Origin: a virus
Taxonomy: Duplodnaviria; Caudoviricetes
Virus record (IMG/VR): IMGVR_UViG_3300021514_000002
Location: 32,001-96,000 of that record
Length of the DNA: 64,000 bases
Strand: one strand, 5' to 3'
The notes beneath the pieces were generated by a model, which saw nothing but the letters and a program-made list of their open reading frames with translations, was not told where the DNA came from and searched no databases. Of this stretch, positions 12,286-46,802 are shown in pieces; the stretch's first letter is position 1, and each line of letters begins with the position of its first letter. Position numbers and translations under genes: made by a program.

Positions 12286-12930
12286 TTATTTGTTAAATAC
12301 TTCCTCAACGGATAGAATATCAAATTCTGTCAAATTTGTACCTTCTGGGGTATTTACGTTAATAACATCAACCCCCGTATCAAGCAGAGGCTGCTTTATG
12401 GTTTTGTAAGAAGCACGCATTTTTTGATAAACAGCTTCACCATCAATCCGCGCATGAGGTCTTGTATTAGAATGCCAATGGGATGTAGATTTAATGTTAC
12501 GTTCCCCCCATTTCATATCTAGGCCAAGTAAATATATTCGTTTAAATCCAAGGTGAACAGCCGCCATATTAAGTGCAGCATACGACGAATTTGACCCATG
12601 TCGCATACTTCCTGCTTTTGTTTCAAGTCCTTGTTGTCCTGTTAGATGCCATCGTTTATCGACTACATCCATTTTCGTCGGTTTAGTAAGATTAAGAACA
12701 CCCTGCCAAATCAAACCTTTGAAGTCAACTAAATCCTTTTCATGATCCTTAATCCATGGTTCATCTGTACAATAAAGAATTTGGGCATTTGGTAATTTCA
12801 TGTATGAGTTATTAATGGCTATAACAAATTTACCATCAAGTAAAGACCAATCAAAATCGGTTAGTGATGTACCACCACCAACTATGTAACACGTATTGTT
12901 ATATTGTAGGGGATTTATTCCTTCGATCAT
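12286..12930 (-). CDS. MptE/DUF115-like (motility-associated-factor / glycan transferase-type fold) protein
   Basis: YIVGGGTSL...IAINN...NSSYAALNMA...IYLLGLDM. Confidence 0.65.
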   Translation of the reverse strand: MIEGINPLQYNNTCYIVGGGTSLTDFDWSLLDGKFVIAINNSYMKLPNAQILYCTDEPWIKDHEKDLVDFKGLIWQGVLNLTKPTKMDVVDKRWHLTGQQGLETKAGSMRHGSNSSYAALNMAAVHLGFKRIYLLGLDMKWGERNIKSTSHWHSNTRPHARIDGEAVYQKMRASYKTIKQPLLDTGVDVINVNTPEGTNLTEFDILSVEEVFNK

Positions 12931-13442
12931 GCAGGCAATCCTATTATCGTAAATTCACGTTCGCTACCGAACGTTTCAGTTATATTAAATCTATTTTCTA
13001 GTTTTTTCAACCACCAATCTTTATCTTCTATGATTAAATGTGCATTTCGTCCATCGGCAAGTGTTTTGCACGCAGGTCGTGTAGCGATTGTTAAGAAAAC
13101 TACTTTTTTTGCTAAATCATGTAATTCATTAAGTACATCGTCTAAGCATTCGGGTTCAATGTGTTCTAATACATCAGTACAAACGACAATATCATGTTGT
13201 GTTGGTTTTTGTGAAAATTCTAATATAGCGGGATCGTATTGTGTTATATTAAATGATAGCTTTTCTTGTAATGTGCTTTTACCACAACCATAGTCAAGAA
13301 CATCCCGCGATTGGTATTTTTTTGTTAAACCATTGATGTGTGTAGCCCATTTCCAACCACCTGTTCCATATGTTTCATTGCTATCATGGAGTTGTTCGTT
13401 TAGCTCTTTATATTCTTTGGTTATCGTGTTAGACATTTTCAA
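12927..13442 (-). CDS. class I SAM-dependent methyltransferase
   Basis: VLDYGCGK, D.VVCTDVLEHI. Confidence 0.85.
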   Translation of the reverse strand: MKMSNTITKEYKELNEQLHDSNETYGTGGWKWATHINGLTKKYQSRDVLDYGCGKSTLQEKLSFNITQYDPAILEFSQKPTQHDIVVCTDVLEHIEPECLDDVLNELHDLAKKVVFLTIATRPACKTLADGRNAHLIIEDKDWWLKKLENRFNITETFGSEREFTIIGLPA

Positions 13443-35350: not shown

Positions 35351-36763
35351 TTACCATTTCATTAAATAAGATAAGAATGTACGAACCCCAAATCCAGTTC
35401 CACCTGATTGGTTTGTACCAAACGGCTTATCAGCAAAAGCAGGTCCAGCAATATCTAAATGTAAATATTTTTTCTTTCCCTCTTCGGTCAATGCATTTGT
35501 CAAGAACAATCCCGCCTTATGACATCCTTGGTATTTTGTTCCCATGTTTGACAAGTCTGCAAGTTTGTCATCAACACCATCGAGCATAAATTTATGGAAT
35601 TCCGCGTTACAGAAAATTTCACCTTCTTTAAGTCCTACGGTTTTGATTTTATCTTTCATTTCATCTGCGAATCCGACCATGCCTGCCGCTTCTGCACCAA
35701 ATGCCGCCAATGCAGCACCTGTCAAGGTAGCGAACGTATACATTTCATCAAAATCTGGATTTTCTTCTTCAGCCAATACCATGTTGTCAAATAATACTAG
35801 GCGTCCTTCTGCATCGGTATTTTTAACATGAACGGTTTTCTTGTTCTTCATAGTAAGAACATCCCCAGGTTTATACGAGTGTTCATTAATCATATTTTCT
35901 GCTAAAGCAATATAGGCAGTTACATAATATGGTGAGCCGATTTCCACAAGACCTTTCATGATTCCCAAAACAGTCATAGCACCTGCTTTATCGCATTTCA
36001 TATTAACCATGCTGTCGGTTGGTTTAATAGAAAGCCCACCACTATCGTATGTCAATCCTTTACCAATTAATACCACATGTTTTGAAAAATCGCTTCTTCG
36101 TAATCCTTGCGGCGTGTATGTTAATTTTACGGTCATGGCAGGATGCGGGGACGAACGATTGACGGCAAGGTGTCCGTTCATTTCTAACTTTGATAATTCT
36201 GATTCGTCATATTTGGTGACTGTGATATTATCTACATCTGCAAACATATCAATAATTGTGTTAGTTATCGTAACAGAAGTCATATCTTCGGCGGTGCCAT
36301 TAACCATATCACGCGTAAAACATTGCGCGTTTGCACGGTTAGTGGCTCTGTGTATACATTGTTCTATCACTTCATCGTGAGCATCTTTTAGAACATTAGG
36401 ATAAAGGATAATTTTATTAAGAATGTTACTTTTTGGTTCTGATTTGTACTTTTGAAAACTATAATCACCTAAAACCAAACCTTCTAAAAACTCTTGACAA
36501 TTTGCAGGTACTTCAATATCTACAGATTCAATATTAAGATTATTAAGATGTTGCATTAGGTTGAAACCAGATTCCCGCCAATCATCTTGCAGCATATCTT
36601 CTTTTTGTAAAACGTAAACATAGCCAGCTGTGGCATCGGTATGTATTTTGAAACTTTCGCCAAGCATTACAATACTTGGAATTGTTTTGACTTTTTCTTT
36701 AGTAAGAAATTTTACGCCTAATTTTGATTTTTTTTGGTCATCTATCGCTAATATTAATTTCAT
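35351..36763 (-). CDS. pepA: leucyl aminopeptidase (M17)
   Basis: GKGLTYDSGG, MKCDKAGA, AEN, NTDAEGRL, ATLTGA, HLDIAG. Confidence 0.92.
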   Translation of the reverse strand: MKLILAIDDQKKSKLGVKFLTKEKVKTIPSIVMLGESFKIHTDATAGYVYVLQKEDMLQDDWRESGFNLMQHLNNLNIESVDIEVPANCQEFLEGLVLGDYSFQKYKSEPKSNILNKIILYPNVLKDAHDEVIEQCIHRATNRANAQCFTRDMVNGTAEDMTSVTITNTIIDMFADVDNITVTKYDESELSKLEMNGHLAVNRSSPHPAMTVKLTYTPQGLRRSDFSKHVVLIGKGLTYDSGGLSIKPTDSMVNMKCDKAGAMTVLGIMKGLVEIGSPYYVTAYIALAENMINEHSYKPGDVLTMKNKKTVHVKNTDAEGRLVLFDNMVLAEEENPDFDEMYTFATLTGAALAAFGAEAAGMVGFADEMKDKIKTVGLKEGEIFCNAEFHKFMLDGVDDKLADLSNMGTKYQGCHKAGLFLTNALTEEGKKKYLHLDIAGPAFADKPFGTNQSGGTGFGVRTFLSYLMKW

Positions 36764-36840: not shown

Positions 36841-36916
36841 TGGTGGGAACGGTGGGAGTTGAACCCACGCCTTTCTGATTAAGAGTCAGATATACTAGCC
36901 ACTATACGACGTTCCC
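36841..36916 (-). tRNA. tRNA-Lys(CTT)
   Basis: TCTGA-CTCTTAA-TCAGA, CCA. Confidence 0.92.
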
Positions 36917-36922
36917 GTTATT

Positions 36923-36998
36923 TGGTAGTCCCGCACGGAATCGAACCGTGTGTAGTCTTCTTTGTAAGAGAAGTGCGTCGCCATTCAGCATCGGGACT
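36923..36998 (-). tRNA. tRNA-Val(TAC)
   Basis: CTTCT-CTTACAA-AGAAG, CCA. Confidence 0.88.
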
Positions 36999-37179
36999 AG
37001 TGTTTATTTTTTCTGGCTATCATTAAAGACTAAAGGTTCACCTTCATCTTTTATAACGGCTTCAAGTAATCGTTTTGCTTCTTCAAAATATTCCATGGAT
37101 GATTCATCAACGCCATCTGCAGGACAAAAATAAATATTCATTTTCTTTTTCCGTTGTTTCATTTTCGTTCTCCGTTGTT

Positions 37180-37270
37180 TGGCTCCCTCGGGTGGATTCG
37201 AACCACCATAACGCTTTCAAGTATACGCTTGTTTAACAGACAAGTCTCTTACCAGTTAGAGTACAAGGGA
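37180..37270 (-). tRNA. tRNA-Asn(GTT) with about 20-nt variable region
   Basis: CTTGT-CTGTTAA-ACAAG, G73, CCA; V region CGTATACTTGAAAGCGTTAT. Confidence 0.85.
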
Positions 37271-37277
37271 ATAAATT

Positions 37278-37353
37278 TGGCTGGCACGGTGGGATTCGAA
37301 CCCACATACACTTGTTTAACAGACAAGCCTCCTACCGGATAGAGCACACGCCA
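37278..37353 (-). tRNA. tRNA-Asn(GTT), canonical length
   Basis: same 17-nt anticodon arm as the long copy, G73, CCA. Confidence 0.9.
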
Positions 37354-37469
37354 ATAACTTTTTACTTATCAAACCATAGATGTAAAATCCTTTCAACTTC
37401 ATCTAACAATTCGTTCATTTCTTTAATTAATTCATCTTTACTTTTCATTTCTTTTCCTATCTTTCAATT

Positions 37470-37557
37470 TGGTGCCAGCAGTAGGATTCGAACCTACAGT
37501 GAGTTTTCACCCGCCGGATTACAAAACCGGTGCAATACCTGATTATGCGATACTGGC
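37470..37557 (-). tRNA. tRNA-Thr(TGT) with 16-nt variable arm
   Basis: CCGGT-TTTGTAA-TCCGG, G1-C72/C2-G71, V hairpin GTGA-AAAC-TCAC, CCA. Confidence 0.8.
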
Positions 37558-38060
37558 AATTGTACTACTTTGCGACATTTCAGCCCTCGTCAAATATAGC
37601 ACGTATTCGTTTACCTAAAGCAGCAGCCTGTTCTCTTACATGTTTAGAACTTTCAAGCTGTTCAGGTGTAATTTCTTTTTGTTCAAATTCTTTGGCACCT
37701 TCACCAACAAATTTTAAATTAGGAAACGCTTCTTTCATGTTCATGTTTTTCACCTATATAATATTTTAATCTTTTAATAACTTCTTCGCTGTATTCTTTA
37801 CCTTTAGTATCTAATAAAGACATTTCAATTTTTAAAAGAATTGTTTTAATATTCCAGTTACTGATTAAACCGTTTTCATAAAAATCGATCCAATCAATAA
37901 CCATATTTTGTTTTTCAAATTCATCAATAATAAAATCAAGGGGTAAACCATGTGTTTCTACTATTTTAAAAACACCTTTTATTACTTGTTTATTATCTGA
38001 TGTTATCCCTGAAGTGTCAAGGTGTTTCTTTTTCCTACCGCGTTTGGCGATTTCATTTCA

Positions 38061-38276
38061 TTATCCCCCGTCTTTAGATTCTTCAATAAGGTTTAAATGT
38101 TTTCTTATCCATCGCATGAATAATATTGCTTTGTCTTCACTATTAAATGCTGCAGTGCCTGCATCACTTATTGGTACAGGAAATTCAAATCCACATTCAG
38201 TAACGTACCATAATTCGCCTTCTTTATAAAATAAAAACTTTACTACTTTACCTTTAACCATATCTTTAATAGACAT
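38061..38276 (-). CDS. conserved phage hypothetical protein
   Basis: V.F..Y.EGELWY...GFEFPVP..D.G.A.F...DKAI.FMRWIRK. Confidence 0.65.
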   Translation of the reverse strand: MSIKDMVKGKVVKFLFYKEGELWYVTECGFEFPVPISDAGTAAFNSEDKAILFMRWIRKHLNLIEESKDGG

Positions 38277-38294
38277 TTTCTTCTTCCTAGTTTG

Positions 38295-38367
38295 TGGAGC
38301 AGACGGGATTTGAACCCGCCGCAGAAAATCTTGCCAGAATTTCTCGTCCCCTTAGACATACTGCCCC
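38295..38367 (-). tRNA. tRNA-Ala(GGC), CCA not encoded
   Basis: G3:U70, loop CTGGCAA, weak anticodon stem. Confidence 0.75.
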
Positions 38368-38376
38368 GTTGTTGTT

Positions 38377-38451
38377 TGGTAGCCCCGTCAAGACTCGAAC
38401 TTGACTCTAACGGTTATCAGCCGTTTGTAATCACCCATATACTACGGGGCT
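38377..38451 (-). tRNA. tRNA-Ile(GAT)
   Basis: AACGG-CTGATAA-CCGTT, CCA. Confidence 0.92.
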
Positions 38452-38615
38452 ATAGCCGTCTTTTACTGCTGTCATACAGCACCTACAAGTAGGAGGTCGA
38501 TTACAACGGTCGCCTATTTTAATATAATCTTTATTCTTCCACTCAGTCCGGTAACTAGTATGGATGTGGGAGGCTCATTCAACCTGTGTACTATATTAAA
38601 ATTCTTTTATACTAA

Positions 38616-38939
38616 TTACTTCTTATCTGGATACTGTGCATCCAGTTCATCAATGTAAGCGTAAGGACTTTGCCCTGGCTTAAATATTTTGATATTCTTA
38701 AAACCATTATCTTCGGTAATAAGACTATCTTTTTCATCAATGGAACCACGATGTTTTGCACCATATTTTCCTTCAACTTTACCAGTCGCGGGATTTAAAT
38801 CACCCCATTTAATATGAGGATCTCCCATTGGTTCTACTGCATACGTTTTTCCTGTTCTGAAAGAAACAATCATATGTCTTCCAGTATCTTCGGTTTTTTC
38901 AAAAAACTTCTTTCTAAATTCTGGTGACAACATTGTCAT
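38616..38939 (-). CDS. conserved phage hypothetical protein
   Basis: 3' part of track ORF; start moved to MTML after GGAG. Confidence 0.6.
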   Translation of the reverse strand: MTMLSPEFRKKFFEKTEDTGRHMIVSFRTGKTYAVEPMGDPHIKWGDLNPATGKVEGKYGAKHRGSIDEKDSLITEDNGFKNIKIFKPGQSPYAYIDELDAQYPDKK

Positions 38940-38959
38940 TCTCCTTTTTATTATAAATT

Positions 38960-39035
38960 TGGTGGACTGCCCCAGCCACGATCTGGGAACCTCTCGATTA
39001 AAAGTCGAGTACTCTGCCAATTGAGTTAGCAGTCC
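38960..39035 (-). tRNA. tRNA-Lys(TTT), atypical T-loop ATCGTGG
   Basis: CTCGA-CTTTTAA-TCGAG, CCA. Confidence 0.88.
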
Positions 39036-39040
39036 TAATC

Positions 39041-39664
39041 TTAATATTCTATTCCCCATTCATTTAATGTCGTTTTGACTCTGTTATAATTGTTACCCTT
39101 TGCCGCCAATCCAAGCTTTAATAAACATTGTCTAATATTACCAGTTTCTATATACGTTTTAACTATCTGCTCTGCCGTAATAGGTTCTTTAGTTACTTTC
39201 TTTTTATTTCTACCACGCCAAGTAAGTGTTAAACTATGACAATTGGGACATAACCCTTCAAGGTTCCCCCTTTCATTATTTTGATTATCCCCATCTTTAT
39301 GTTCTAGTTCAAGAACTAATGGTTGATTTAACCATCTGTCCAGTTTACATCTATTACATTTATGTTCCTGTTCAAGAAAAACTCGCTTACGAATCCTTCC
39401 AAACTTCAAACTACTAAAATCTTCCGCTAGTAGTTTAGTTTCCCAAGTCTTCTTTCGTTTTTCTATCATATTTTCTATTACTATTGGATCTAATAATGGG
39501 GTCTTCAATCTCCCCTCCTGCATAGCACTCTTAACGCTATTAGAAATTTTTCTTTTTGTTTCGGCAGTCTTGATTCTACTGTTTGCACATCCACGGGAAC
39601 AAAACTTCCCACTTCCGAACGTACCATCATGCTCTTTATTGCATTTTATATTTTTACATTTCAT
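39041..39664 (-). mobile_element. HNH endonuclease inserted in tRNA cluster
   Basis: CNRC...ELEHKDGD..NN...NL..LCPNCH; TATAAATA at 39684-39691. Confidence 0.85.
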
Positions 39665-39720
39665 ATTCGTACCCCTTTTAACTTATTTATATCAATAGTT
39701 AAAAAGTGTGCGATTAAAAT

Positions 39721-39794
39721 TGGTGGAGCTACAGGGAATCGAACCCTGGTCTTCGCGGTGCAAGCGCAACGTAATCCCGTTATACTACAGCCCC
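39721..39794 (-). tRNA. tRNA-Ala(TGC), second copy
   Basis: TTGCG-CTTGCAC-CGCGA, G3:U70, CCA. Confidence 0.9.
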
Positions 39795-39934
39795 AAAATG
39801 TAGTCCCTATCGCTGACGTACTTCACATACGCTTAGGATGATTACCATCGTCCCAGTTATGATAGGATTTACCTACACAAACTAATCTACTTGTTAAAGA
39901 ACAAATACACCATCAAGGGTATATTTTAAAAACT

Positions 39935-40020
39935 TGGTGGGGCCGCAGGGATTCGAACCCTGAATGCGTATTCCGCGCCGGATTAAAAGTCCGGTATCCT
40001 AGCCGTTAGATGACAGCCCC
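39935..40020 (-). tRNA. tRNA-Lys(TTT) with 15-nt variable arm
   Basis: CCGGA-CTTTTAA-TCCGG, V hairpin GCG-GAATA-CGC, CCA. Confidence 0.85.
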
Positions 40021-40027
40021 ATAAATC

Positions 40028-40642
40028 TTAAACTAATCTTTTGAATAATGCATCGTTACCGTTACATTTTTCTTTAAGTCGATCAATCCATTTTCTATTC
40101 TTAATCTTAAACATTCTAACAATTTTGTTTTTCTTGTTGTGATACTTACATACCACCCCTTCAAACGTCATATCTTCTAATGTTCCATTTTTAATAGAAG
40201 TAACTAAATCTTCTGTTAACACACCTTTGTATAAAACTTTGGGTATACCTACATCTTCAAATAATTCTATGAAGTGTAACGGTTCAACCATTCCACGTTT
40301 ATACACATTGACATCAATCAATGTCACTTGGTGTTCTTCGTTCATATCATGCGAGCCAGCAAATGAGCTCTCACCATGAAACTCAAAAAATACTACTACA
40401 CGTTCCCACTTCTTATTAGAAAATATTTCAGCTAATCGTTCCTGATGTTTTTCTAATATTATATCAACCGCTTCACCCAACATAGGATGTTTATTATCAA
40501 TCAGTTGATTTCTTGAACCAAATTTATAAAACCCTTTCTTCTTTGACCATTCTGCTCTTATATTAGAACCGTCAAGTTTATCAAACACTACTACTTTTGT
40601 TCTTTCTAACTTTGTACTTATTGATGGATATGATTTCATCAT
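40028..40642 (-). CDS. ATP-dependent RNA ligase-like nucleotidyltransferase (short Rnl2-like)
   Basis: motif I KLDGSN, FFEFHG, FEGVV, FKIKN. Confidence 0.7.
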   Translation of the reverse strand: MMKSYPSISTKLERTKVVVFDKLDGSNIRAEWSKKKGFYKFGSRNQLIDNKHPMLGEAVDIILEKHQERLAEIFSNKKWERVVVFFEFHGESSFAGSHDMNEEHQVTLIDVNVYKRGMVEPLHFIELFEDVGIPKVLYKGVLTEDLVTSIKNGTLEDMTFEGVVCKYHNKKNKIVRMFKIKNRKWIDRLKEKCNGNDALFKRLV

Positions 40643-41491: not shown

Positions 41492-41532
41492 TTTTCCATG
41501 ATTTCGTCTATTTTAGATACCATATCACTATT

Positions 41533-41727
41533 TTACTTAAAAGTTATTCTATTTGAATCTTCGGTGCTAAAATATTTAACATTGAGCACTGCATCATTAA
41601 ATAACGCGGCTGCTTCAACACATCTGGCTTTTTTGCGTTTCTTATCAACATAACAAATGAATACATGTTGTATATTATTATATGTAAAAAAATCACCAAG
41701 CTTCATCTTCGGCCATATCTTCGGCAT
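41533..41727 (-). CDS. hypothetical protein
   Basis: ORF track. Confidence 0.4.
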   Translation of the reverse strand: MPKIWPKMKLGDFFTYNNIQHVFICYVDKKRKKARCVEAAALFNDAVLNVKYFSTEDSNRITFK

Positions 41728-41852
41728 CTTTCTAAGGGTATATTCTATATTATGGATTCAATTTTCTTGGAAATTGAATCCATAATATATTCTTTGTCGC
41801 TATCTAAAACATTGGATATGACTATAGTTAATTCTTTACGTTCATCCATGAT

Positions 41853-44093
41853 TTATACCCAATTAGCAAGAATTTCATCTACTTTAGAAGCCATCCCTAC
41901 ATCAAAGATGGTATCATATTCTTTGCCCTCTTGACGTTCATAGTCAATGGAATAGCCTCGTGCTTCGGCGTGTAAACGAAGTAGATCAAACATGTTAGGT
42001 TTATCAACCAACATGGATTCAATAGATTTTGCCATTAAAATAATACTTCCAGCTTTATTTTCCACGTTTGAATTGCGAAAAGAGCTTAATGAGACATCTG
42101 CCCAAATTATTTGATTTGTTTCTAAATCTAAAATCAATGGGATATTATACCTCGTATCACCATCAATATCAAATTTGTGCTTAACTGTAGTAGGTTCAAA
42201 TACTTTACCACTATTAACCTTATCGCGTCCCATAACACCTGCAAAACATTCAAAAGTATTAAATCCTTGACCAGTATATGAAATAACATTCATTACAACA
42301 TATCGTATATGATTACGACGCGCAGTGTCAATATCAATATCAATAAACTCTGCTGCGCCATTAGGTGCAGACTGAATATCGCCAGAATGTACGCCGCCAA
42401 CATCAGATAAGCGCGTATAAGATAACTGGCCTTTGTAGTTCCAATTAGCATCATAAGATACTGCGCTTAAATCAACATCAACACGATCATCTTTATTTTC
42501 TTTCCAATATAAGAACATTCTTGTTGCATTATTCTTTGCTAATGGTATATGAGAACCACGGGCAACCGTAACTAAACTTTTGCTTGCATTTCTTTGCACC
42601 AATGGCACTAAGTAACCTTTTAAATCTTTGTTAATATAAATATTACCCAAATCTTCAAGTTTAGCAAAGCGTTGTAATAATTCATTAGTGATTGTATTGA
42701 CGACATTGATTGCAAAATCCGCATCAATTGTATCACGTTCATCTTTAATAACTTGGATCTTCGCCAAGCTACCTTTAGGCATGAAGTAACGCTCGCCTGA
42801 ATTAATAGAACGATACTTAAAATGCGAAGACAATGTTAACAACATTGGCGTAGGTATTTTTTCTACCAATTCATTAAAAGTCGTTAACACGGGTACAGGT
42901 GCATCAAACGCACGCAACATCCAATCCATGCGTCGTGCAAACTCGCCGGGTCTGGTTGCCAAAATCGCAATCAAGTCCCGCTCAGCGATCCATGCATCGG
43001 AACCAGTAAGTGATTTAATAGTAACAACAAACTTTTCAACCTTGCTATTAAATGTTTCAATTGTGTCAGCACGATTTCTTAGCGTGTCACATGCATTGAA
43101 AGCATTTGGATATTTCTTGGCATACTTACCAATATGTAAAACTTCTGCAAGACGAATCCAACGCATTTTATAGCGAAGCATATCTTCTTCTGGACTATTT
43201 ACATTGTCCAGTAACCACATAATAACCCTGCGTTCTTTATTTGATAAACGGAAACGTGTAACTTCTTTCAAAGATACATCACCACCAGATAACTGAACAG
43301 CAAGACGCAATACGTCTGTTGCCGTTTTGATATAATCAATCAATATGTATGATGCTATGGTGGTGTAGTCACTATGTGAACCGTTCGGATCGTATGTATA
43401 ATCTACCGCAAGCCCAGCAATCAATGCTACGTTTTCTTTCATGGTAATCATATTTGATACACATGTAAACATGCTTGGATCTTCTTTGACTAACTTCGTA
43501 ATAATATCACGATTATCTTCTGAAATAGAAGACTTAGCTTCTAATAGATTCGTAAAGATTTGTTTAACATCTTCTACATTAATTAATTTAATAATTTTTA
43601 AAGGGGTAATATCTTCCAATACTGGACGATCATTTTCATCCGTAGTTTCATCTACTTGGCATTGACAAATTGGGCAGGCACCAAAATCATCCATATTAAA
43701 TAAACGCGTATCAATAACATGACCACATGAAAGTGGTTTAATGTCTTCTGGTACGCAATCAATTAAATTGGTCACAAATCCAATAATACGTCTGAAAAAA
43801 TATTCATCATCATCGGGAATATCCTGTGGGAAATTCTTAAATAATGGACGATACTTTACATGATCGCCAACCATTTTGGATAAGTTTTCGACTAACATTG
43901 TATGGAAATTTCTGAAATCGGTTTCAGTTAAGGTACGGATGGCACGAATAACATTACCATCTAGCGTATACCCAAGTTGAGATATATCTAATAAAAGATC
44001 GCGAATATGAACTGCTGGTGTTTTCCATGTTGATTCAGTAACTACGACAGACTGTTTGTATTGTAAAGCAATGGCATTTTGTAACACGTTCAT
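41853..44093 (-). CDS. prokaryotic RING-4 + ROT/TROVE-like helical repeats + C-terminal TerD domain protein
   Basis: SCGH...GACPIC RING-like motif; RPGEFARR..W.LR; C-terminal FLYW...DVDLSA...HSGDIQSAPNGAAEFIDI (TerD-like). Confidence 0.7.
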   Translation of the reverse strand: MNVLQNAIALQYKQSVVVTESTWKTPAVHIRDLLLDISQLGYTLDGNVIRAIRTLTETDFRNFHTMLVENLSKMVGDHVKYRPLFKNFPQDIPDDDEYFFRRIIGFVTNLIDCVPEDIKPLSCGHVIDTRLFNMDDFGACPICQCQVDETTDENDRPVLEDITPLKIIKLINVEDVKQIFTNLLEAKSSISEDNRDIITKLVKEDPSMFTCVSNMITMKENVALIAGLAVDYTYDPNGSHSDYTTIASYILIDYIKTATDVLRLAVQLSGGDVSLKEVTRFRLSNKERRVIMWLLDNVNSPEEDMLRYKMRWIRLAEVLHIGKYAKKYPNAFNACDTLRNRADTIETFNSKVEKFVVTIKSLTGSDAWIAERDLIAILATRPGEFARRMDWMLRAFDAPVPVLTTFNELVEKIPTPMLLTLSSHFKYRSINSGERYFMPKGSLAKIQVIKDERDTIDADFAINVVNTITNELLQRFAKLEDLGNIYINKDLKGYLVPLVQRNASKSLVTVARGSHIPLAKNNATRMFLYWKENKDDRVDVDLSAVSYDANWNYKGQLSYTRLSDVGGVHSGDIQSAPNGAAEFIDIDIDTARRNHIRYVVMNVISYTGQGFNTFECFAGVMGRDKVNSGKVFEPTTVKHKFDIDGDTRYNIPLILDLETNQIIWADVSLSSFRNSNVENKAGSIILMAKSIESMLVDKPNMFDLLRLHAEARGYSIDYERQEGKEYDTIFDVGMASKVDEILANWV

Positions 44094-44121
44094 ATTATTA
44101 TCCTTTATTAGACGAAAAGAA

Positions 44122-44215
44122 AACGGGAATTGGACTCTCTATTTCGGGCTACCTTTGGGCGTGAACCCGCAGGTTGCGTTAGCTGATTTAGAAGGAAGAG
44201 AATTCCATAGCCGTT
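44122..44215 (-). ncRNA. structured RNA copy 2 (Y-RNA-like candidate)
   Basis: AACGG-CTATG-GAATT-CTCTTCC-TTCTA...TAGAG-AGTCC-AATTC-CCGTT. Confidence 0.6.
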
Positions 44216-44231
44216 TATTTCAAATTTAAGT

Positions 44232-44297
44232 GTCAGGAATTGGAGACTCTAATTCACATTTAAAGTAGTTTAGAAGGAAGAGAACTTCATAGCTGAC
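44232..44297 (-). ncRNA. structured RNA copy 1 (Y-RNA-like candidate)
   Basis: GTCAG-CTAT-GAAGTT-CTCTTCCT-TCTAA...TTAGA-GTCTCC-AATTC-CTGAC. Confidence 0.6.
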
Positions 44298-44306
44298 GAA
44301 AGATAT

Positions 44307-44333
44307 ATTATAATAAAGGGGTTAAAATGTCAA
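44307..44333 (-). promoter_or_regulatory. sigma70-like promoter directly upstream of RNA copy 1
   Basis: TTGACA then TATAAT at 15 nt (or TAATAT at 17 nt). Confidence 0.6.
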
Positions 44334-44343
44334 GGGTTTTTTA

Positions 44344-45108
44344 CTAAAAATTCAAAAAATTTATAACTTGTTGATTTTCTTGAATTCTTTTCTTAGCCAT
44401 TTCTATGTATTTTTGTGACAATTCAATACCAATGAAATCACGGTGTAGTTTTTTTGCAGCCAATGCGGTAGTTCCAGACCCCATGAAAGGATCAAGAATG
44501 GTTTTTGCTGTAGTTGAAGATATAATTCGTTCAGGTAATTCTATGGGAAAAGGCGCAGGATGTTCATTATTAGATTCTTGTCCAATATCCCAGACATCCC
44601 CAAACCCGTTTGCTTTATCTGCTAATTTAAAGTCAGGTTTGCATATCATGTATATTACTTCATATGTAGGAAGGAAATAACTTTTATTGAAGTTTATCCC
44701 TCCATTTCGTCGCCAAATTATGACTTGTCGTACAGGGAATCCTTCAAGAATATCATGCCTATCCTGTAATAATCCATTTTGTACACGCCATTTGTGGTTA
44801 TAAAAAATCGCACCATTTTCAGGAATAATACGGAACATTTCAGTTAAGCAATCACGTTGCCATTGGACATATTCATCATGGGGCATATTATCATTATGTT
44901 CTGAATAACCGTCTTTTAATGCTGCGTTTGGCCATTTACTACTTTTGGTGCCAATAGAACTTAGGCCATTCCCAGATGAATTTTTTATATTATATGGTGG
45001 GGATGTTACAATTAATTCAATGCTATTATCTGGAATTTCTTTCATTACTTGCAGCGAATCACCACAAATGAAATTATTTGTGAAGTCGGAAGGATATTGT
45101 AAAGTCAT
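44344..45108 (-). CDS. DNA N4-cytosine/N6-adenine methyltransferase (beta class)
   Basis: TSPPYN, HPAPFP, DPFMGSGTT. Confidence 0.9.
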   Translation of the reverse strand: MTLQYPSDFTNNFICGDSLQVMKEIPDNSIELIVTSPPYNIKNSSGNGLSSIGTKSSKWPNAALKDGYSEHNDNMPHDEYVQWQRDCLTEMFRIIPENGAIFYNHKWRVQNGLLQDRHDILEGFPVRQVIIWRRNGGINFNKSYFLPTYEVIYMICKPDFKLADKANGFGDVWDIGQESNNEHPAPFPIELPERIISSTTAKTILDPFMGSGTTALAAKKLHRDFIGIELSQKYIEMAKKRIQENQQVINFLNF

Positions 45109-45169
45109 ATTTTCTATCTTAATACGTTACATACAACAAGTCAATATTATTTTTCAAAATCTTGCCTGA

Positions 45170-45421
45170 TTATGTTAATCTAATTTCGTATTCAGTAATT
45201 GCATCTGCAAGTGTTGCAAAAATGTCTGCATCTAAAAATTCGTCAGTGCCTGCTTCGGTACCTAAACGGATATCATATTTAACAACCGTTCCTGTTGATA
45301 ATACATTTGCCCGAACTTGAACAATAACGCCAGTTTTTACTGCACTGTTGCAACTTCCACCTGGGGTAATAACCCAAATAGCTGTTTCTGGTTCATATGA
45401 ATATGCAATTGGTGATGCCAT
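45170..45421 (-). CDS. late-expressed hypothetical (possibly structural) protein
   Basis: TATAAATA at 45438-45445, RBS GGAG. Confidence 0.5.
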   Translation of the reverse strand: MASPIAYSYEPETAIWVITPGGSCNSAVKTGVIVQVRANVLSTGTVVKYDIRLGTEAGTDEFLDADIFATLADAITEYEIRLT

Positions 45422-45638: not shown

Positions 45639-46802
45639 CTACGAAAGGCTAACCTTCCGTAGGACTTCTTTGCGTAAATCTTCGATAGCTTCGCCGATTT
45701 GTTTACCTTCCAATCTTTCCTTTTGTCCAGTTGTCAACATCTCAAACTCAACAACAATTCCTGCTTTAAACATCTTCAAGAATTTAAAGGCAATTGAATG
45801 AATAAAATGGTTATCAAAAATAATCAACGTAGTTGCTGTTTTATGAAACGTAGTAGGCAATTTCCATGCATGGACTTTGTCTAATACTTTAATAAAACCT
45901 TCCGCAGTATCAAAATCATTAGAATGATCCAAAATATCATTAATCATAGTGCAAGACATTTTTAATGCATTTTTAACAGATCTTGGAGCCTTCAATCGTT
46001 CAAGCATGTTTAATACTTGTTCAGTATTGGAGCCAGCAGCAAGAATTACCATTCGGTCAATAAAATCACTGAACAGTAAGACAGCCCTGTCTAGTGTTTC
46101 GTTGGTTTGAATTGGTAATTTGTTTTCATCAAACAATTCTGGAAACAATACATCAAGGGCATTAACATCATGTAGAACCATAAAAAACTGCATAGGAAAA
46201 TCTTCCATCACTGCTTTTTCTAATTCAGCGAAAACACGTTCTGGGGTTAATTCATCCAATTCACCAGACTTTGTTAGTTGTGCCATCAATTTGAGCGTAT
46301 CAGTAGAAACACTAAAATTGTATCGTGCTGCAAATCTTGCCACGCGAAGAACACGTACTGGATCTTCTGCAAACGCATCACTAACATGCCGAAGCAGACC
46401 GCTTTCTAAATCCTGCATCCCATTAAATGGATCAATAACAAAATGTGTACTTCGTGTCTCTTGGAATTTTTCCCAATTGTCACGGTTTACCGCCATTGAA
46501 TTGACAGTCAAATCCCGACGGAACAAGTCATCTCTCAATGTTACAGAAGGGTCAAAGTCGGTTTCAAAGCCATGGTAGCCAGAACCAATTTTCCGTTCGG
46601 TACGCGCCAGTGCAAATTCTTGACCTTTTTCGTCAAGGAAAACAGGAAAATCAGCGCCTACTTGTTGAAAGCCGTCAGCAAGCATTTCTTCTGGTGTTGA
46701 ACCAACAACAACAAAATCCATATCCTTAACTGGCCGACCGAGTAAGGTATCCCTGACGGCACCGCCGACTACGAAAGTTTCTGTGTGAGTGTGAGTTGTC
46801 AT
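45639..46802 (-). CDS. cca: CCA-adding tRNA nucleotidyltransferase
   Basis: [50 protein letters not shown]. Confidence 0.92.

What the first reader, a model, noticed from the sequence alone, without database searches (positions are those of the whole stretch)
41853..44333. Two covarying copies of a structured RNA upstream of a RING/TROVE-like/TerD gene: candidate Ro/Y-RNA-like ribonucleoprotein
Seen: between a sigma70-like promoter and the RBS of the 746-aa gene lie two related elements (44297-44232 and 44215-44122). Both have an outer 5-bp stem, a conserved CTAT bulge, a GAA(G)TT/AATTC stem, a pyrimidine-rich CTCTTCC internal loop, a TCTA/TAGA stem and a variable loop. The outer stems differ in sequence but stay paired (GTCAG/CTGAC versus AACGG/CCGTT), which is compensatory change. 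Established: the Prok-RING_4 + ROT/TROVE-like + TerD architecture has been proposed to act in RNA processing, and Ro60/TROVE proteins bind Y RNAs through a bulged stem, with the RNA genes often adjacent. Inference: these are the cognate RNA ligands, either trans-acting Y-like RNAs or autoregulatory operators, and may link to the neighbouring tRNA-repair machinery.
Basis: partly seen in the sequence, partly recalled or inferred. Interest (0 to 1): 0.8.

Follow-up and report, generated by a model that had tools for sequence, protein, structure and literature searches.

The report
Y-like RNAs beside Ro-like TerD gene
Two small folded RNAs in front of a giant-phage gene belong to a widespread RNA family, absent from Rfam, that is found almost only beside genes for one Ro60-shaped protein in phages and bacteria, which points to an apparently undescribed RNA-protein particle built on the plan of Ro60 with its Y RNAs.

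Summary
Both elements are real: E1 at 44297-44232 and E2 at 44215-44122, minus strand. They share a conserved "handle": a closing stem P1, a CUAU loop, a second stem P2, a single-stranded UCCUUCUA, a variable cargo, then a 3' AAUUYC loop.

Across 57 copies the helices are 93.5% paired, against 37-50% in slid controls.

A model built from phage copies found 262 matches in 71 of 79 phage loci and 131 in 77 of 80 bacterial loci. All lie on the gene's strand. In 101 Paenibacillaceae genomes RNA and protein co-occur: 25 both, 1 RNA only, 0 protein only.

The 746-aa protein models as a weak RING-like zinc finger, a Ro60/TROVE-like ring (Z 11-13.6) and a TerD domain (Z 13.5-16) where Ro60 has vWA.

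Two more copies lie in this phage's tRNA arrays. One carries a permuted tRNA mimic that hits Rfam YrlA below threshold.

Best reading: a Ro60/Y-RNA-like particle with its own RNA handle. Binding is inferred, not shown.

It is absent from Rfam 15 and from the papers searched. This scan has already noted the same system in at least 20 other genomes.

The parts
44305..44333 (-). Sigma-70-like promoter: TTGACA (44333-44328), 17-nt spacer, TAATAT (44310-44305). It ends 7 nt before E1.
   Evidence: 10 of 12 matches; the count of such sites in the region is not above shuffles. The same TTGACA-17-TAnnAT site is kept at the same place in two orthologous loci.
44232..44297 (-). E1, a 66-nt Y-like RNA. 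P1 is 44297-44293 with 44236-44232. CUAU is 44292-44289. P2 is 44288-44279 with 44250-44242 (7 of 9 pairs). The invariant UCCUUCUA is 44278-44271. The cargo is short and the 3' loop AAUUC is 44241-44237.
   Evidence: Model R1 scores it 52.7 bits, E 2.4e-10, but this copy was among the sequences the model was built from.
44122..44215 (-). E2, a 94-nt Y-like RNA. P1 is 44215-44211 with 44126-44122. CUAU is 44210-44207. P2 is 44206-44197 with 44140-44132. UCCUUCUA is 44196-44189. The cargo is a roughly 45-nt hairpin that is kept in orthologues. The 3' loop AAUUC is 44131-44127.
   Evidence: R1 scores it 50.5 bits (a seed sequence). P1 reads AACGG/CCGTT here, AGCAG/CTGCT in L167 and AGCGG/CCGCT in L168, which are compensatory changes between orthologues.
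44115..44121 (-). U-rich tract (UUCUUUU) directly after P1 of E2. It may be a leaky terminator or a processing tail (inference).
   Evidence: The terminator scan found no site here.
44101..44105 (-). Ribosome-binding site AAGGA, 7 nt before the ATG.
41853..44093 (-). Gene for the 746-aa protein P0001 (MXAN_6230/SCO0854-type family).
   Evidence: NCBIfam NF041916 scores 470 bits, E 1.5e-140, below its equivalog cut-off of 600. There are more than 2000 homologues.
43644..43742 (-). RING-like zinc finger, residues about 118-150 (C123, H125, C140, C143).
   Evidence: Pfam Prok-RING_4 scores 25.3 bits, E 1.5e-5, below the cut-off of 27. C123, C140 and C143 are at least 90% conserved.
42654..43586 (-). 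Ro60/TROVE-like alpha-helical ring, residues about 170-480. The C-terminal helices 678-745 are also spanned by the Ro60 alignments.
   Evidence: AlphaFold2 model with pLDDT 86.5 and pTM 0.80. Ro60/TROVE chains give Z 11.1-13.6 over 314-343 aligned residues; the next unrelated chain gives Z 7.4-7.7. Foldseek probability is 0.98-1.00.
42024..42635 (-). TerD-like beta-sandwich, residues about 487-690, at the place where Ro60 has its vWA domain.
   Evidence: Z 13.5-16.0, rmsd 2.2-4.0, 153-166 aligned residues to TerD structures. Foldseek E 1.5e-5 to 8e-4.
40028..40642 (-). Context: RNA ligase gene downstream, next to a tRNA array (36841-40020).
   Evidence: Pfam RNA_ligase PF09414, E 1.7e-8. tRNAs.
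45639..46802 (-). Context: CCA-adding enzyme / poly(A) polymerase family gene upstream.
   Evidence: Pfam PolyA_pol, E 7.8e-20, and PolyA_pol_RNAbd, E 5.1e-11.

Best explanation
E1 and E2 are genes for small non-coding RNAs of a large, previously uncatalogued family. The adjacent 746-aa protein, a Ro60-shaped ring with a TerD cap, is most likely their dedicated binding partner. Together they would form a particle analogous to Ro60 with Y RNA. The shared handle (P1, the CUAU/AAUUYC loop, P2 and the single-stranded UCCUUCUA) would be the protein-binding module. The variable cargo would be the effector or tethering module: a short loop in E1, a conserved hairpin in E2, and T-arm or whole permuted tRNA mimics in the two copies in this phage's tRNA arrays. 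In this window one promoter drives E1, E2 and the gene as a single transcript, from which the RNAs are cut out. The copies in the tRNA arrays abut tRNAs and would be released by tRNA-processing enzymes. By analogy with Ro60, and given the ligase, the CCA-adding enzyme and 45 tRNA genes in this phage, the particle probably acts in surveillance, protection or repair of tRNA-like RNAs during infection. What is shown: the RNA family, its fold, its genetic coupling to the protein, and the protein's fold. What is inferred: physical binding, which part of the RNA is bound, processing, and the biological role.
For: RNA fold. P1 plus P2 are 93.5% paired in 57 MAFFT-aligned copies, 13 of 15 pairs change on both sides, slid controls give 37-50%, and 0 of 500 shuffles reach this. 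In 84 bacterial copies that were not used to build the model the figure is 97.1%, against 43-55%. When 161 copies were picked by sequence anchors and P2 alone, P1 still pairs at 4.42 of 6 positions, against 3.39 (sd 0.07) with shuffled partners. Orthologues show compensatory changes in P1 of E2.

Coupling to the gene. R1 finds 262 matches in 71 of 79 phage loci and 131 in 77 of 80 bacterial loci, all on the gene's strand. A 6.6-Mb Paenibacillus genome and an 8.1-Mb Variovorax genome each have exactly two matches, both at the gene. In 101 Paenibacillaceae genomes the RNA is in 26 and the protein in 25, with 25 shared. Bacterial loci have no other conserved neighbour.

Protein. Only TerD and Ro60 chains reach Z of 8 or more among 48,161 representative chains. 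Ro60/TROVE chains give Z 11.1-13.6. At least 12 invariant Arg/Lys are kept across 37-86% identical homologues.

Y-RNA likeness. The genome copy at 10.85-10.97 kb has the handle plus T arm, closed acceptor stem and D arm in YrlA order. It scores 36.9 bits, E 2.4e-6, on Rfam YrlA. Seventeen of 201 distinct copies in relatives have such cargo.
Against: No experiment or RNA-seq data bears on expression, RNA ends or binding. The protein has no sequence-level match to TROVE. The similarity to Ro60 is by fold only, with rmsd 4-5 A, in an alpha-solenoid class where middling Z scores are common. The handle lacks the GNCGAA(N)G or GGUCCGA motif that Ro60 recognises (PMC4201824). E1 and E2 have no Rfam match. 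E1 and E2 lie in the gene's 5' leader, so a cis role is not excluded for these two copies. The link to RNA repair rests on loose neighbourhood in phages only. This phage has no RtcB.
Confidence: 0.72

Rival explanations
1. The RNAs are substrates or clients rather than stable partners. The protein would be a maturation, chaperone or quality-control factor that acts transiently on handle-bearing precursors. For example it might help release or fold the tRNA-like cargo.
For: Some cargoes are tRNA-shaped with a 7-bp acceptor-like stem and an encoded CCA. The copies in this genome abut tRNAs. Ro60 itself binds misfolded RNAs as clients (PMC4201824).
Against: Most cargoes are short, unrelated hairpins with nothing obvious to mature: 110 of 201 copies are 100 nt or shorter and have no T or D motif. 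What is conserved is the handle, not the cargo. The one-to-one genomic coupling resembles dedicated partners.
Confidence: 0.13
2. E1 and E2 are only cis-acting leader elements of the gene's mRNA. They would be autoregulatory operators or attenuators that the protein binds to control its own synthesis.
For: Both lie between the only promoter-like site and the start codon. E2 ends 28 nt before the ATG and is followed by a U-rich tract.
Against: Family members also lie downstream of the gene. They come in 2-8 copies per locus and have promoter-like sites of their own in L010 and L042. In this genome two copies sit 63-65 kb away inside tRNA arrays. Some carry tRNA mimics.
Confidence: 0.08
3. The elements are repeated sequences with no link to the protein, such as transcription terminators, REP-like repeats or remnants of tRNA genes.
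For: They are repeated, AT-rich and lie near tRNA genes. Dimeric tRNAs can mimic YrlA hits; the YrlA hit at genome 69223-69329 is such a case.
Against: Strand bias is complete (393 of 393 matches on the gene's strand). Whole bacterial genomes have copies only at the gene. Co-occurrence is near perfect. Two helices show strong compensatory change.
Confidence: 0.03

Closest known systems
Bacterial and phage Ro60 (Rsr) with Y RNAs: YrlA/YrlB of Salmonella and Mycobacterium smegmatis, Yrn1 of Deinococcus, Yrl1/Yrl2 of Thermus phage phiLo (Rfam RF02553; PMC4201824; PMC12135203)
   Same: A ring of alpha-helical repeats is capped by a second domain. One to several small RNA genes lie next to the protein gene on the same strand. 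The RNA ends pair into a stem-loop-stem module with a conserved 5'-strand motif. The second module is variable, and in at least one RNA per genome it is a permuted tRNA mimic (T arm, closed acceptor stem, D arm). The system occurs in both bacteria and large phages, sometimes near RNA-repair genes.
   Different: There is no sequence match to the TROVE family. A TerD beta-sandwich replaces the vWA/MIDAS domain, and there is an extra N-terminal domain with a RING-like zinc finger. The RNA handle has GGCUAU...CUUCCUUCUA...UAG...AAUUUCC instead of GNCGAA(N)G. E1 and E2 do not match RF02553 at all. This phage has no PNPase link shown and no RtcB.
TerD-family proteins of the tellurite-resistance (Ter) system (PDB 2KXT, 3IBZ, 2QZ7)
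   Same: The C-terminal domain has the TerD fold (Z 13.5-16). It keeps a VDVDLS and an HSGD...E-F-I-D pattern among its invariant residues. From memory, these correspond to the Ca-binding motifs of TerD.
   Different: Here TerD is one domain of a 746-aa RNA-associated protein. It is not a stand-alone roughly 190-aa protein in a ter operon, and no other Ter genes were seen beside it.
NCBIfam NF041916, MXAN_6230/SCO0854 family RING domain-containing protein
   Same: A full-length match (residues 10-724, E 1.5e-140). This is the named protein family to which P0001 is related.
   Different: The score of 470 is below the equivalog cut-off of 600. The family has no assigned function, and no paper in the library mentions either locus tag.

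Membership tests
Ro60 / TROVE (Pfam PF05731) | Sequence match to the TROVE profile | tested here: not met
   PF05731 is not among the Pfam hits at E up to 1. There is no TROVE match anywhere in the phage genome, while the control genomes ring. A profile of 40 homologues finds no Ro60 among PDB sequences.
Ro60 / TROVE (Pfam PF05731) | Ring-shaped alpha-helical repeat fold like solved Ro60 | tested here: met
   Z 11.1-13.6, 314-343 aligned residues, rmsd 4.1-5.2, to 9KOP, 9L5Y, 1YVR, 1YVP, 9NEP, 9NEN and 2NVO. The next unrelated chain gives Z 7.4-7.7. This is a predicted model, not a solved structure.
Ro60 / TROVE (Pfam PF05731) | vWA domain with a MIDAS site closing the ring | tested here: not met
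   The domain at that position (residues about 487-690) is a TerD beta-sandwich.
Ro60 / TROVE (Pfam PF05731) | Binds adjacent small RNAs on its outer surface and RNA ends in its hole | not testable with these tools
   This needs gel-shift assays, pull-down or a solved complex.
Y RNA / YrlA (Rfam RF02553) | Score at or above the family's gathering score (69 bits) | tested here: not met
   E1 and E2 have no match even at E up to 10. The copy at genome 10858-10936 scores 36.9 bits, covering only the tRNA-like part, model positions 23-89.
Y RNA / YrlA (Rfam RF02553) | 5' and 3' ends pair into a stem that carries the protein-binding site, interrupted by a loop | tested here: met
   P1, the CUAU/AAUUYC loop and P2, with covariation.
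Y RNA / YrlA (Rfam RF02553) | Ro60-recognition motif GNCGAA(N)G (bacteria) or GGUCCGA (vertebrates) on the 5' strand (PMC4201824) | tested here: not met
   The 5' strands of E1 and E2 contain no CGAA. The family consensus is GGCTAT-N7/8-CTTCCTTCTA.
Y RNA / YrlA (Rfam RF02553) | tRNA-like module: T arm, closed acceptor-like stem and D arm, in that order | tested here: inconclusive
   Absent from E1 and E2. Present in the copy at genome 10.85-10.97 kb and in 17 of 201 distinct copies in relatives. The copy at 12.9 kb has only a T-arm-like hairpin.
Y RNA / YrlA (Rfam RF02553) | Encoded beside the gene of its partner protein | tested here: met
TerD (fold of PDB 2KXT, 3IBZ, 2QZ7) | TerD beta-sandwich fold | tested here: met
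   Z 13.5-16.0 with 153-166 aligned residues. No Pfam TerD hit by sequence at E up to 1.
Prok-RING_4 (Pfam PF14447) | Score at or above the curated cut-off (27 bits), with a binuclear set of Cys/His ligands | tested here: inconclusive
   25.3 bits, E 1.5e-5, profile positions 14-44 of 46. Only C123, H125, C140 and C143 are evident. Many homologues carry the precomputed PF14447 label. In Paenibacillaceae homologues this stretch is not matched.
NCBIfam NF041916 (MXAN_6230/SCO0854 RING family) | Score at or above the equivalog cut-off (600 bits) | tested here: not met
   470 bits over residues 10-724. This is a relative of the family, not an equivalog.

The most novel reading that the evidence does not exclude
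This is a second lineage of Y-RNA-type particles, separate from Ro60, that is common in bacteria and giant phages. Its modular RNAs use one handle to load different cargoes onto a Ro-shaped/TerD protein. In this phage the cargoes include tRNA mimics that are cut out of tRNA operons by RNase P and RNase Z. The phage would use the particle to shield, decoy or repair its 45 tRNAs against host tRNA-cutting defences. The TerD domain would act as a metal or small-ligand switch.
Probability: 0.25. Interest if true: 0.9.

Novelty: new variant of a known kind. Interest (0 to 1): 0.75.

Why it matters
Ro60 and Y RNAs are a classic but still poorly understood RNA quality-control particle, known also as a human autoantigen. 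A parallel system would give an independent natural experiment on what such particles do. This one has a different cap domain and a different RNA handle. It has thousands of members across bacterial phyla and giant phages. It also has a very clean genetic signature: the RNA is the only conserved neighbour of the gene. The system would add a sizeable RNA family to the catalogues. It would assign a first functional context to the uncharacterised MXAN_6230/SCO0854 protein family. It occurs in easily grown bacteria such as Paenibacillus, Bacillus, Brevibacillus and Variovorax, so binding and knockout tests are straightforward. In phages, its position among tRNA genes, a ligase and a CCA-adding enzyme suggests a role in the contest over tRNA integrity.

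Tried and rejected
- Rfam at gathering scores over the whole window gave only tRNAs. Rfam at E up to 10 on 43900-44500 gave only chance snoRNA hits.
- A near-identity search of phage GenBank records with 41500-45200 found no match. A close-relative locus search in IMG/VR with the single protein found none.
- RNA-seq: no RNA holder was listed, and only DNA runs from vent, marine and seep metagenomes appeared. No read mapping was therefore done.
- TROVE (PF05731) and RtcB (PF01139) were not found in the phage genome.
- The YrlA hit at genome 69223-69329 (20.3 bits) spans two adjacent tRNA-Asn genes. I rejected it as the known dimeric-tRNA artefact.
- My first choice of copies required a perfect P1, which biases the P1 counts. 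I repeated the test with copies picked by sequence anchors and P2 only. Register errors make that test noisy, but P1 is still far above shuffled partners.
- Neighbour survey of 150 flanking ORFs each. Phage loci gave scattered tRNA and RNA-repair genes: 2 CCA-adding enzymes, 2 Thg1, and 1 each of the Rnl1 and Rnl2 types. Bacterial loci gave no recurrent partner.
- Literature: no held paper links TerD with Ro60, TROVE or YrlA beyond a one-line mention of ROT/TROVE proteins in jumbo phages (PMC7824862). Nothing was found on SCO0854 or MXAN_6230.
- The 2016 RNA-repair paper by Burroughs and Aravind is not held.
- DNA for the 85% and 64% identical homologues could not be fetched.
Full report
**Where the window lies.** The window is bases 32001-96000 of a 363,531-bp virus record. 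DNA runs that hold it come from hydrothermal-vent and marine metagenomes. The genome carries 45 tRNA genes and a tmRNA. Fourteen of the tRNAs are in the window.

**The observation.** Two related elements lie on the minus strand: E1 at 44297-44232 and E2 at 44215-44122. They sit between a TTGACA-17-TAATAT site (44333-44305) and the AAGGA ribosome-binding site of a 746-codon ORF (41853-44093). They share a 25-nt 5' block (92% identical) and a 20-nt 3' block (85%). Folded alone they are unremarkable, with z -0.9 and -2.6. Rfam 15 has nothing for them even at E up to 10.

**A first lead from the same genome.** A pattern search found the 5' block a third time at genome 10.95 kb. There the same outer stem, CTAT and second stem enclose the following, in this order:
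- a T arm (GCAGG-TTCGATC-CCTGC);
- a 7-bp acceptor-like stem closed by a loop that begins ACCA;
- a D arm.

This is the permuted tRNA layout of bacterial YrlA. Rfam YrlA matches it at 36.9 bits, E 2.4e-6, below its gathering score of 69. A weaker YrlA hit inside the window spans two adjacent tRNA-Asn genes. It is the dimeric-tRNA artefact that the YrlA authors warned of (PMC4201824).

**The protein.**
- Pfam gives only a sub-threshold Prok-RING_4 match at residues 121-151.
- NCBIfam places the protein near the uncharacterised MXAN_6230/SCO0854 RING family (470 bits, cut-off 600).
- The family is large: more than 2000 word-index hits and 2728 representatives of 50%-identity clusters.
- An AlphaFold2 model from 40 homologues is confident (pLDDT 86.5, pTM 0.80).
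- Against all 48,161 representative PDB chains, only five reach Z of 8 or more. Two are TerD proteins (Z 13.5-14.9, residues about 520-690). Three are Ro60 proteins: phage phiLo 12.9, Xenopus 11.8 and Deinococcus 11.1, with 316-336 aligned residues. The next chain scores 7.7.
- The re-alignment of Foldseek's list agrees: TerD up to Z 16.0 and the phiLo TROVE domain 13.6.
- No sequence-level link to TROVE exists.

The architecture is therefore an N-terminal domain with a small zinc finger, then a Ro-like helical ring, then TerD in place of Ro60's vWA domain. At least a dozen Arg/Lys are invariant across homologues of 37-86% identity.

**The RNA family.** An alignment-based scan of IMG/VR returned 79 loci with a homologue. 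The core CTTCCTTCT occurs 156 times on the gene's strand in the 700 nt upstream of these genes, against 10 times on the other strand. Many more copies lie just downstream. The 5' consensus is GGCTAT-N7/8-CTTCCTTCTA, and there are two to eight copies per locus.

I aligned 57 short copies, including E1 and E2, with MAFFT and counted pairs for the fold I read from them.
- P1 (6 bp) and P2 (9 bp) are 93.5% paired.
- Thirteen of 15 pairs change on both sides.
- Slid controls give 37-50%, and no shuffle reaches the observed value.
- P1 counts are biased, because I had picked copies by a perfect P1. P2 was not used for picking and is 90.8% paired.
- A second test chose 161 copies by sequence anchors and P2 only. 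P1 still pairs at 4.42 of 6 positions, against 3.39 (sd 0.07) for shuffled partners.

GAA(G)TT/AATTC is 53% paired. TCTA/TAGA is 69.1% paired, equal to shuffles, with no compensatory change. AAUUC is instead a conserved loop opposite CUAU. UCCUUCUA is an invariant single strand at the top of P2.

**Coupling to the gene.**
- The covariance model R1, built from these 57 copies (all phage-derived, E1 and E2 among them), finds 262 matches at E up to 0.001 in 71 of the 79 phage loci.
- It finds 131 matches in 77 of 80 bacterial loci. These come from Bacillota, Bacteroidota, Pseudomonadota, Acidobacteriota, Chloroflexota, Cyanobacteria and relatives, and Planctomycetota.
- Every match is on the gene's strand, and most are within 300 nt of the gene.
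- The 84 best bacterial copies are 97.1% paired, against 43-55% when slid. That alignment is fitted to the model.
- Whole genomes show specificity. A 6.6-Mb Paenibacillus and an 8.1-Mb Variovorax each have exactly two matches, both at the gene.
- In 101 Paenibacillaceae genomes the RNA is in 26 and the protein in 25, with 25 in common. Relatedness inflates such counts, but the pattern is unambiguous.
- Flanking ORFs show no recurrent protein partner in bacteria. In phages there are only scattered tRNA and RNA-repair genes.

**This locus and genome.** Two orthologous loci, with proteins 73% and 71% identical, keep the promoter, E1, E2 and their spacing. Mean column identity of the leader is 85%. 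P1 of E2 reads AACGG/CCGTT, AGCAG/CTGCT and AGCGG/CCGCT in the three. A pair in E2's cargo hairpin switches between A-U and G-C.

R1 and a regular-expression search find further copies in this genome:
- 12902-12997 (51.3 bits), with a T-arm-like hairpin as cargo. It starts 2-3 nt after tRNA-Ser.
- The YrlA-like copy at 10.85-10.97 kb. It ends 4 nt before tRNA-Leu.
- A doubtful copy at 319908-319982 (31 bits).

Near the gene lie an RNA ligase (40028-40642), a CCA-adding enzyme (45639-46802) and a staphylococcal-nuclease homologue.

**How it most likely works.** Shown: a covarying RNA handle, its near-exclusive genetic coupling to one protein family, and that protein's Ro-like and TerD folds. 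Inferred, by analogy with Ro60 and Y RNA (PMC4201824, PMC12135203):
- The ring binds the handle.
- The cargo recruits or mimics other RNAs or enzymes.
- The single-stranded pyrimidine tract may occupy an RNA-binding site.
- E1, E2 and the mRNA come from one promoter, and the U-rich tract after E2 may limit read-through.
- The copies in the tRNA arrays are freed by tRNA-processing enzymes.
- A role in tRNA surveillance or repair during infection is plausible but rests only on neighbourhood.

**Comparison and novelty.** The system works like Ro60/Y RNA but fails that family's membership tests. There is no TROVE sequence match, no vWA domain, no GNCGAA(N)G motif, and no RF02553 score above threshold. 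The papers searched do not describe it. One review notes only that some jumbo phages carry a ROT/TROVE protein (PMC7824862).

This scan has reported the same RNA-protein pair before, in at least 20 other genomes and at another place in this genome. I reached my reading before consulting those notes. My counts match theirs, for example 77 of 80 bacterial loci.

I rate it a new variant of a known kind, with high interest, pending a binding experiment.

Noticed in passing
G000:C1:10820-10990, minus strand (outside the window; L003 about 1390-1530): A third copy of the handle carries a permuted tRNA mimic: a T arm, a 7-bp acceptor-like stem closed by a loop that begins ACCA, and a D arm. It ends 4 nt before tRNA-Leu(CAA). 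It matches Rfam YrlA at 36.9 bits, below threshold.
   Followed up: yes
G000:C1:12902-12997, minus strand (outside the window): A fourth copy (R1 51.3 bits) has the same P1 (TTGTAG/CTACAA) as the third. Its cargo is a T-arm-like hairpin plus a second hairpin. It starts 2-3 nt after tRNA-Ser(UGA).
   Followed up: partly
G000:C1:319908-319982, minus strand (outside the window): A possible fifth, degenerate copy (R1 31 bits, E about 1e-4; CCAT instead of CTAT, TTCCTTCTC core). I did not check whether it lies in a coding region.
   Followed up: no
window 37180-37270, 37470-37557, 39935-40020 (minus strand): Three tRNA genes are unusually long for their type: Asn 91 nt, Thr 88 nt and Lys 86 nt. This suggests inserts or extra arms.
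   Followed up: no
G000:C1:252271-252344 and 252952-253023; 233835-234219: ARAGORN calls two CUA-anticodon (amber-reading) tRNAs and a tmRNA with the tag AANDAFFEETRLAA in this phage genome.
   Followed up: no
window 35351-36763 (minus strand): The phage encodes a full-length M17 leucyl aminopeptidase (Pfam E 5.5e-87).
   Followed up: no
L072:2640-2760: Upstream of three handle RNAs in this relative lies another roughly 110-nt GC-rich stretch. It is closed by a long inverted repeat (GAATTCGGCCTACAATTCAA ... TTGAATTGTAG) and has no handle motif. It may be a different RNA.
   Followed up: no
Paenibacillaceae genomes G001-G103: In these bacterial homologues the profile matches positions 4-116 and 152-736 within one ORF but skips the zinc-finger stretch, so the RING-like part is not universal. 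One genome (G082) has the RNA but no protein match at E up to 1e-20. Several genomes have two or three paralogous gene-RNA sets.
   Followed up: no
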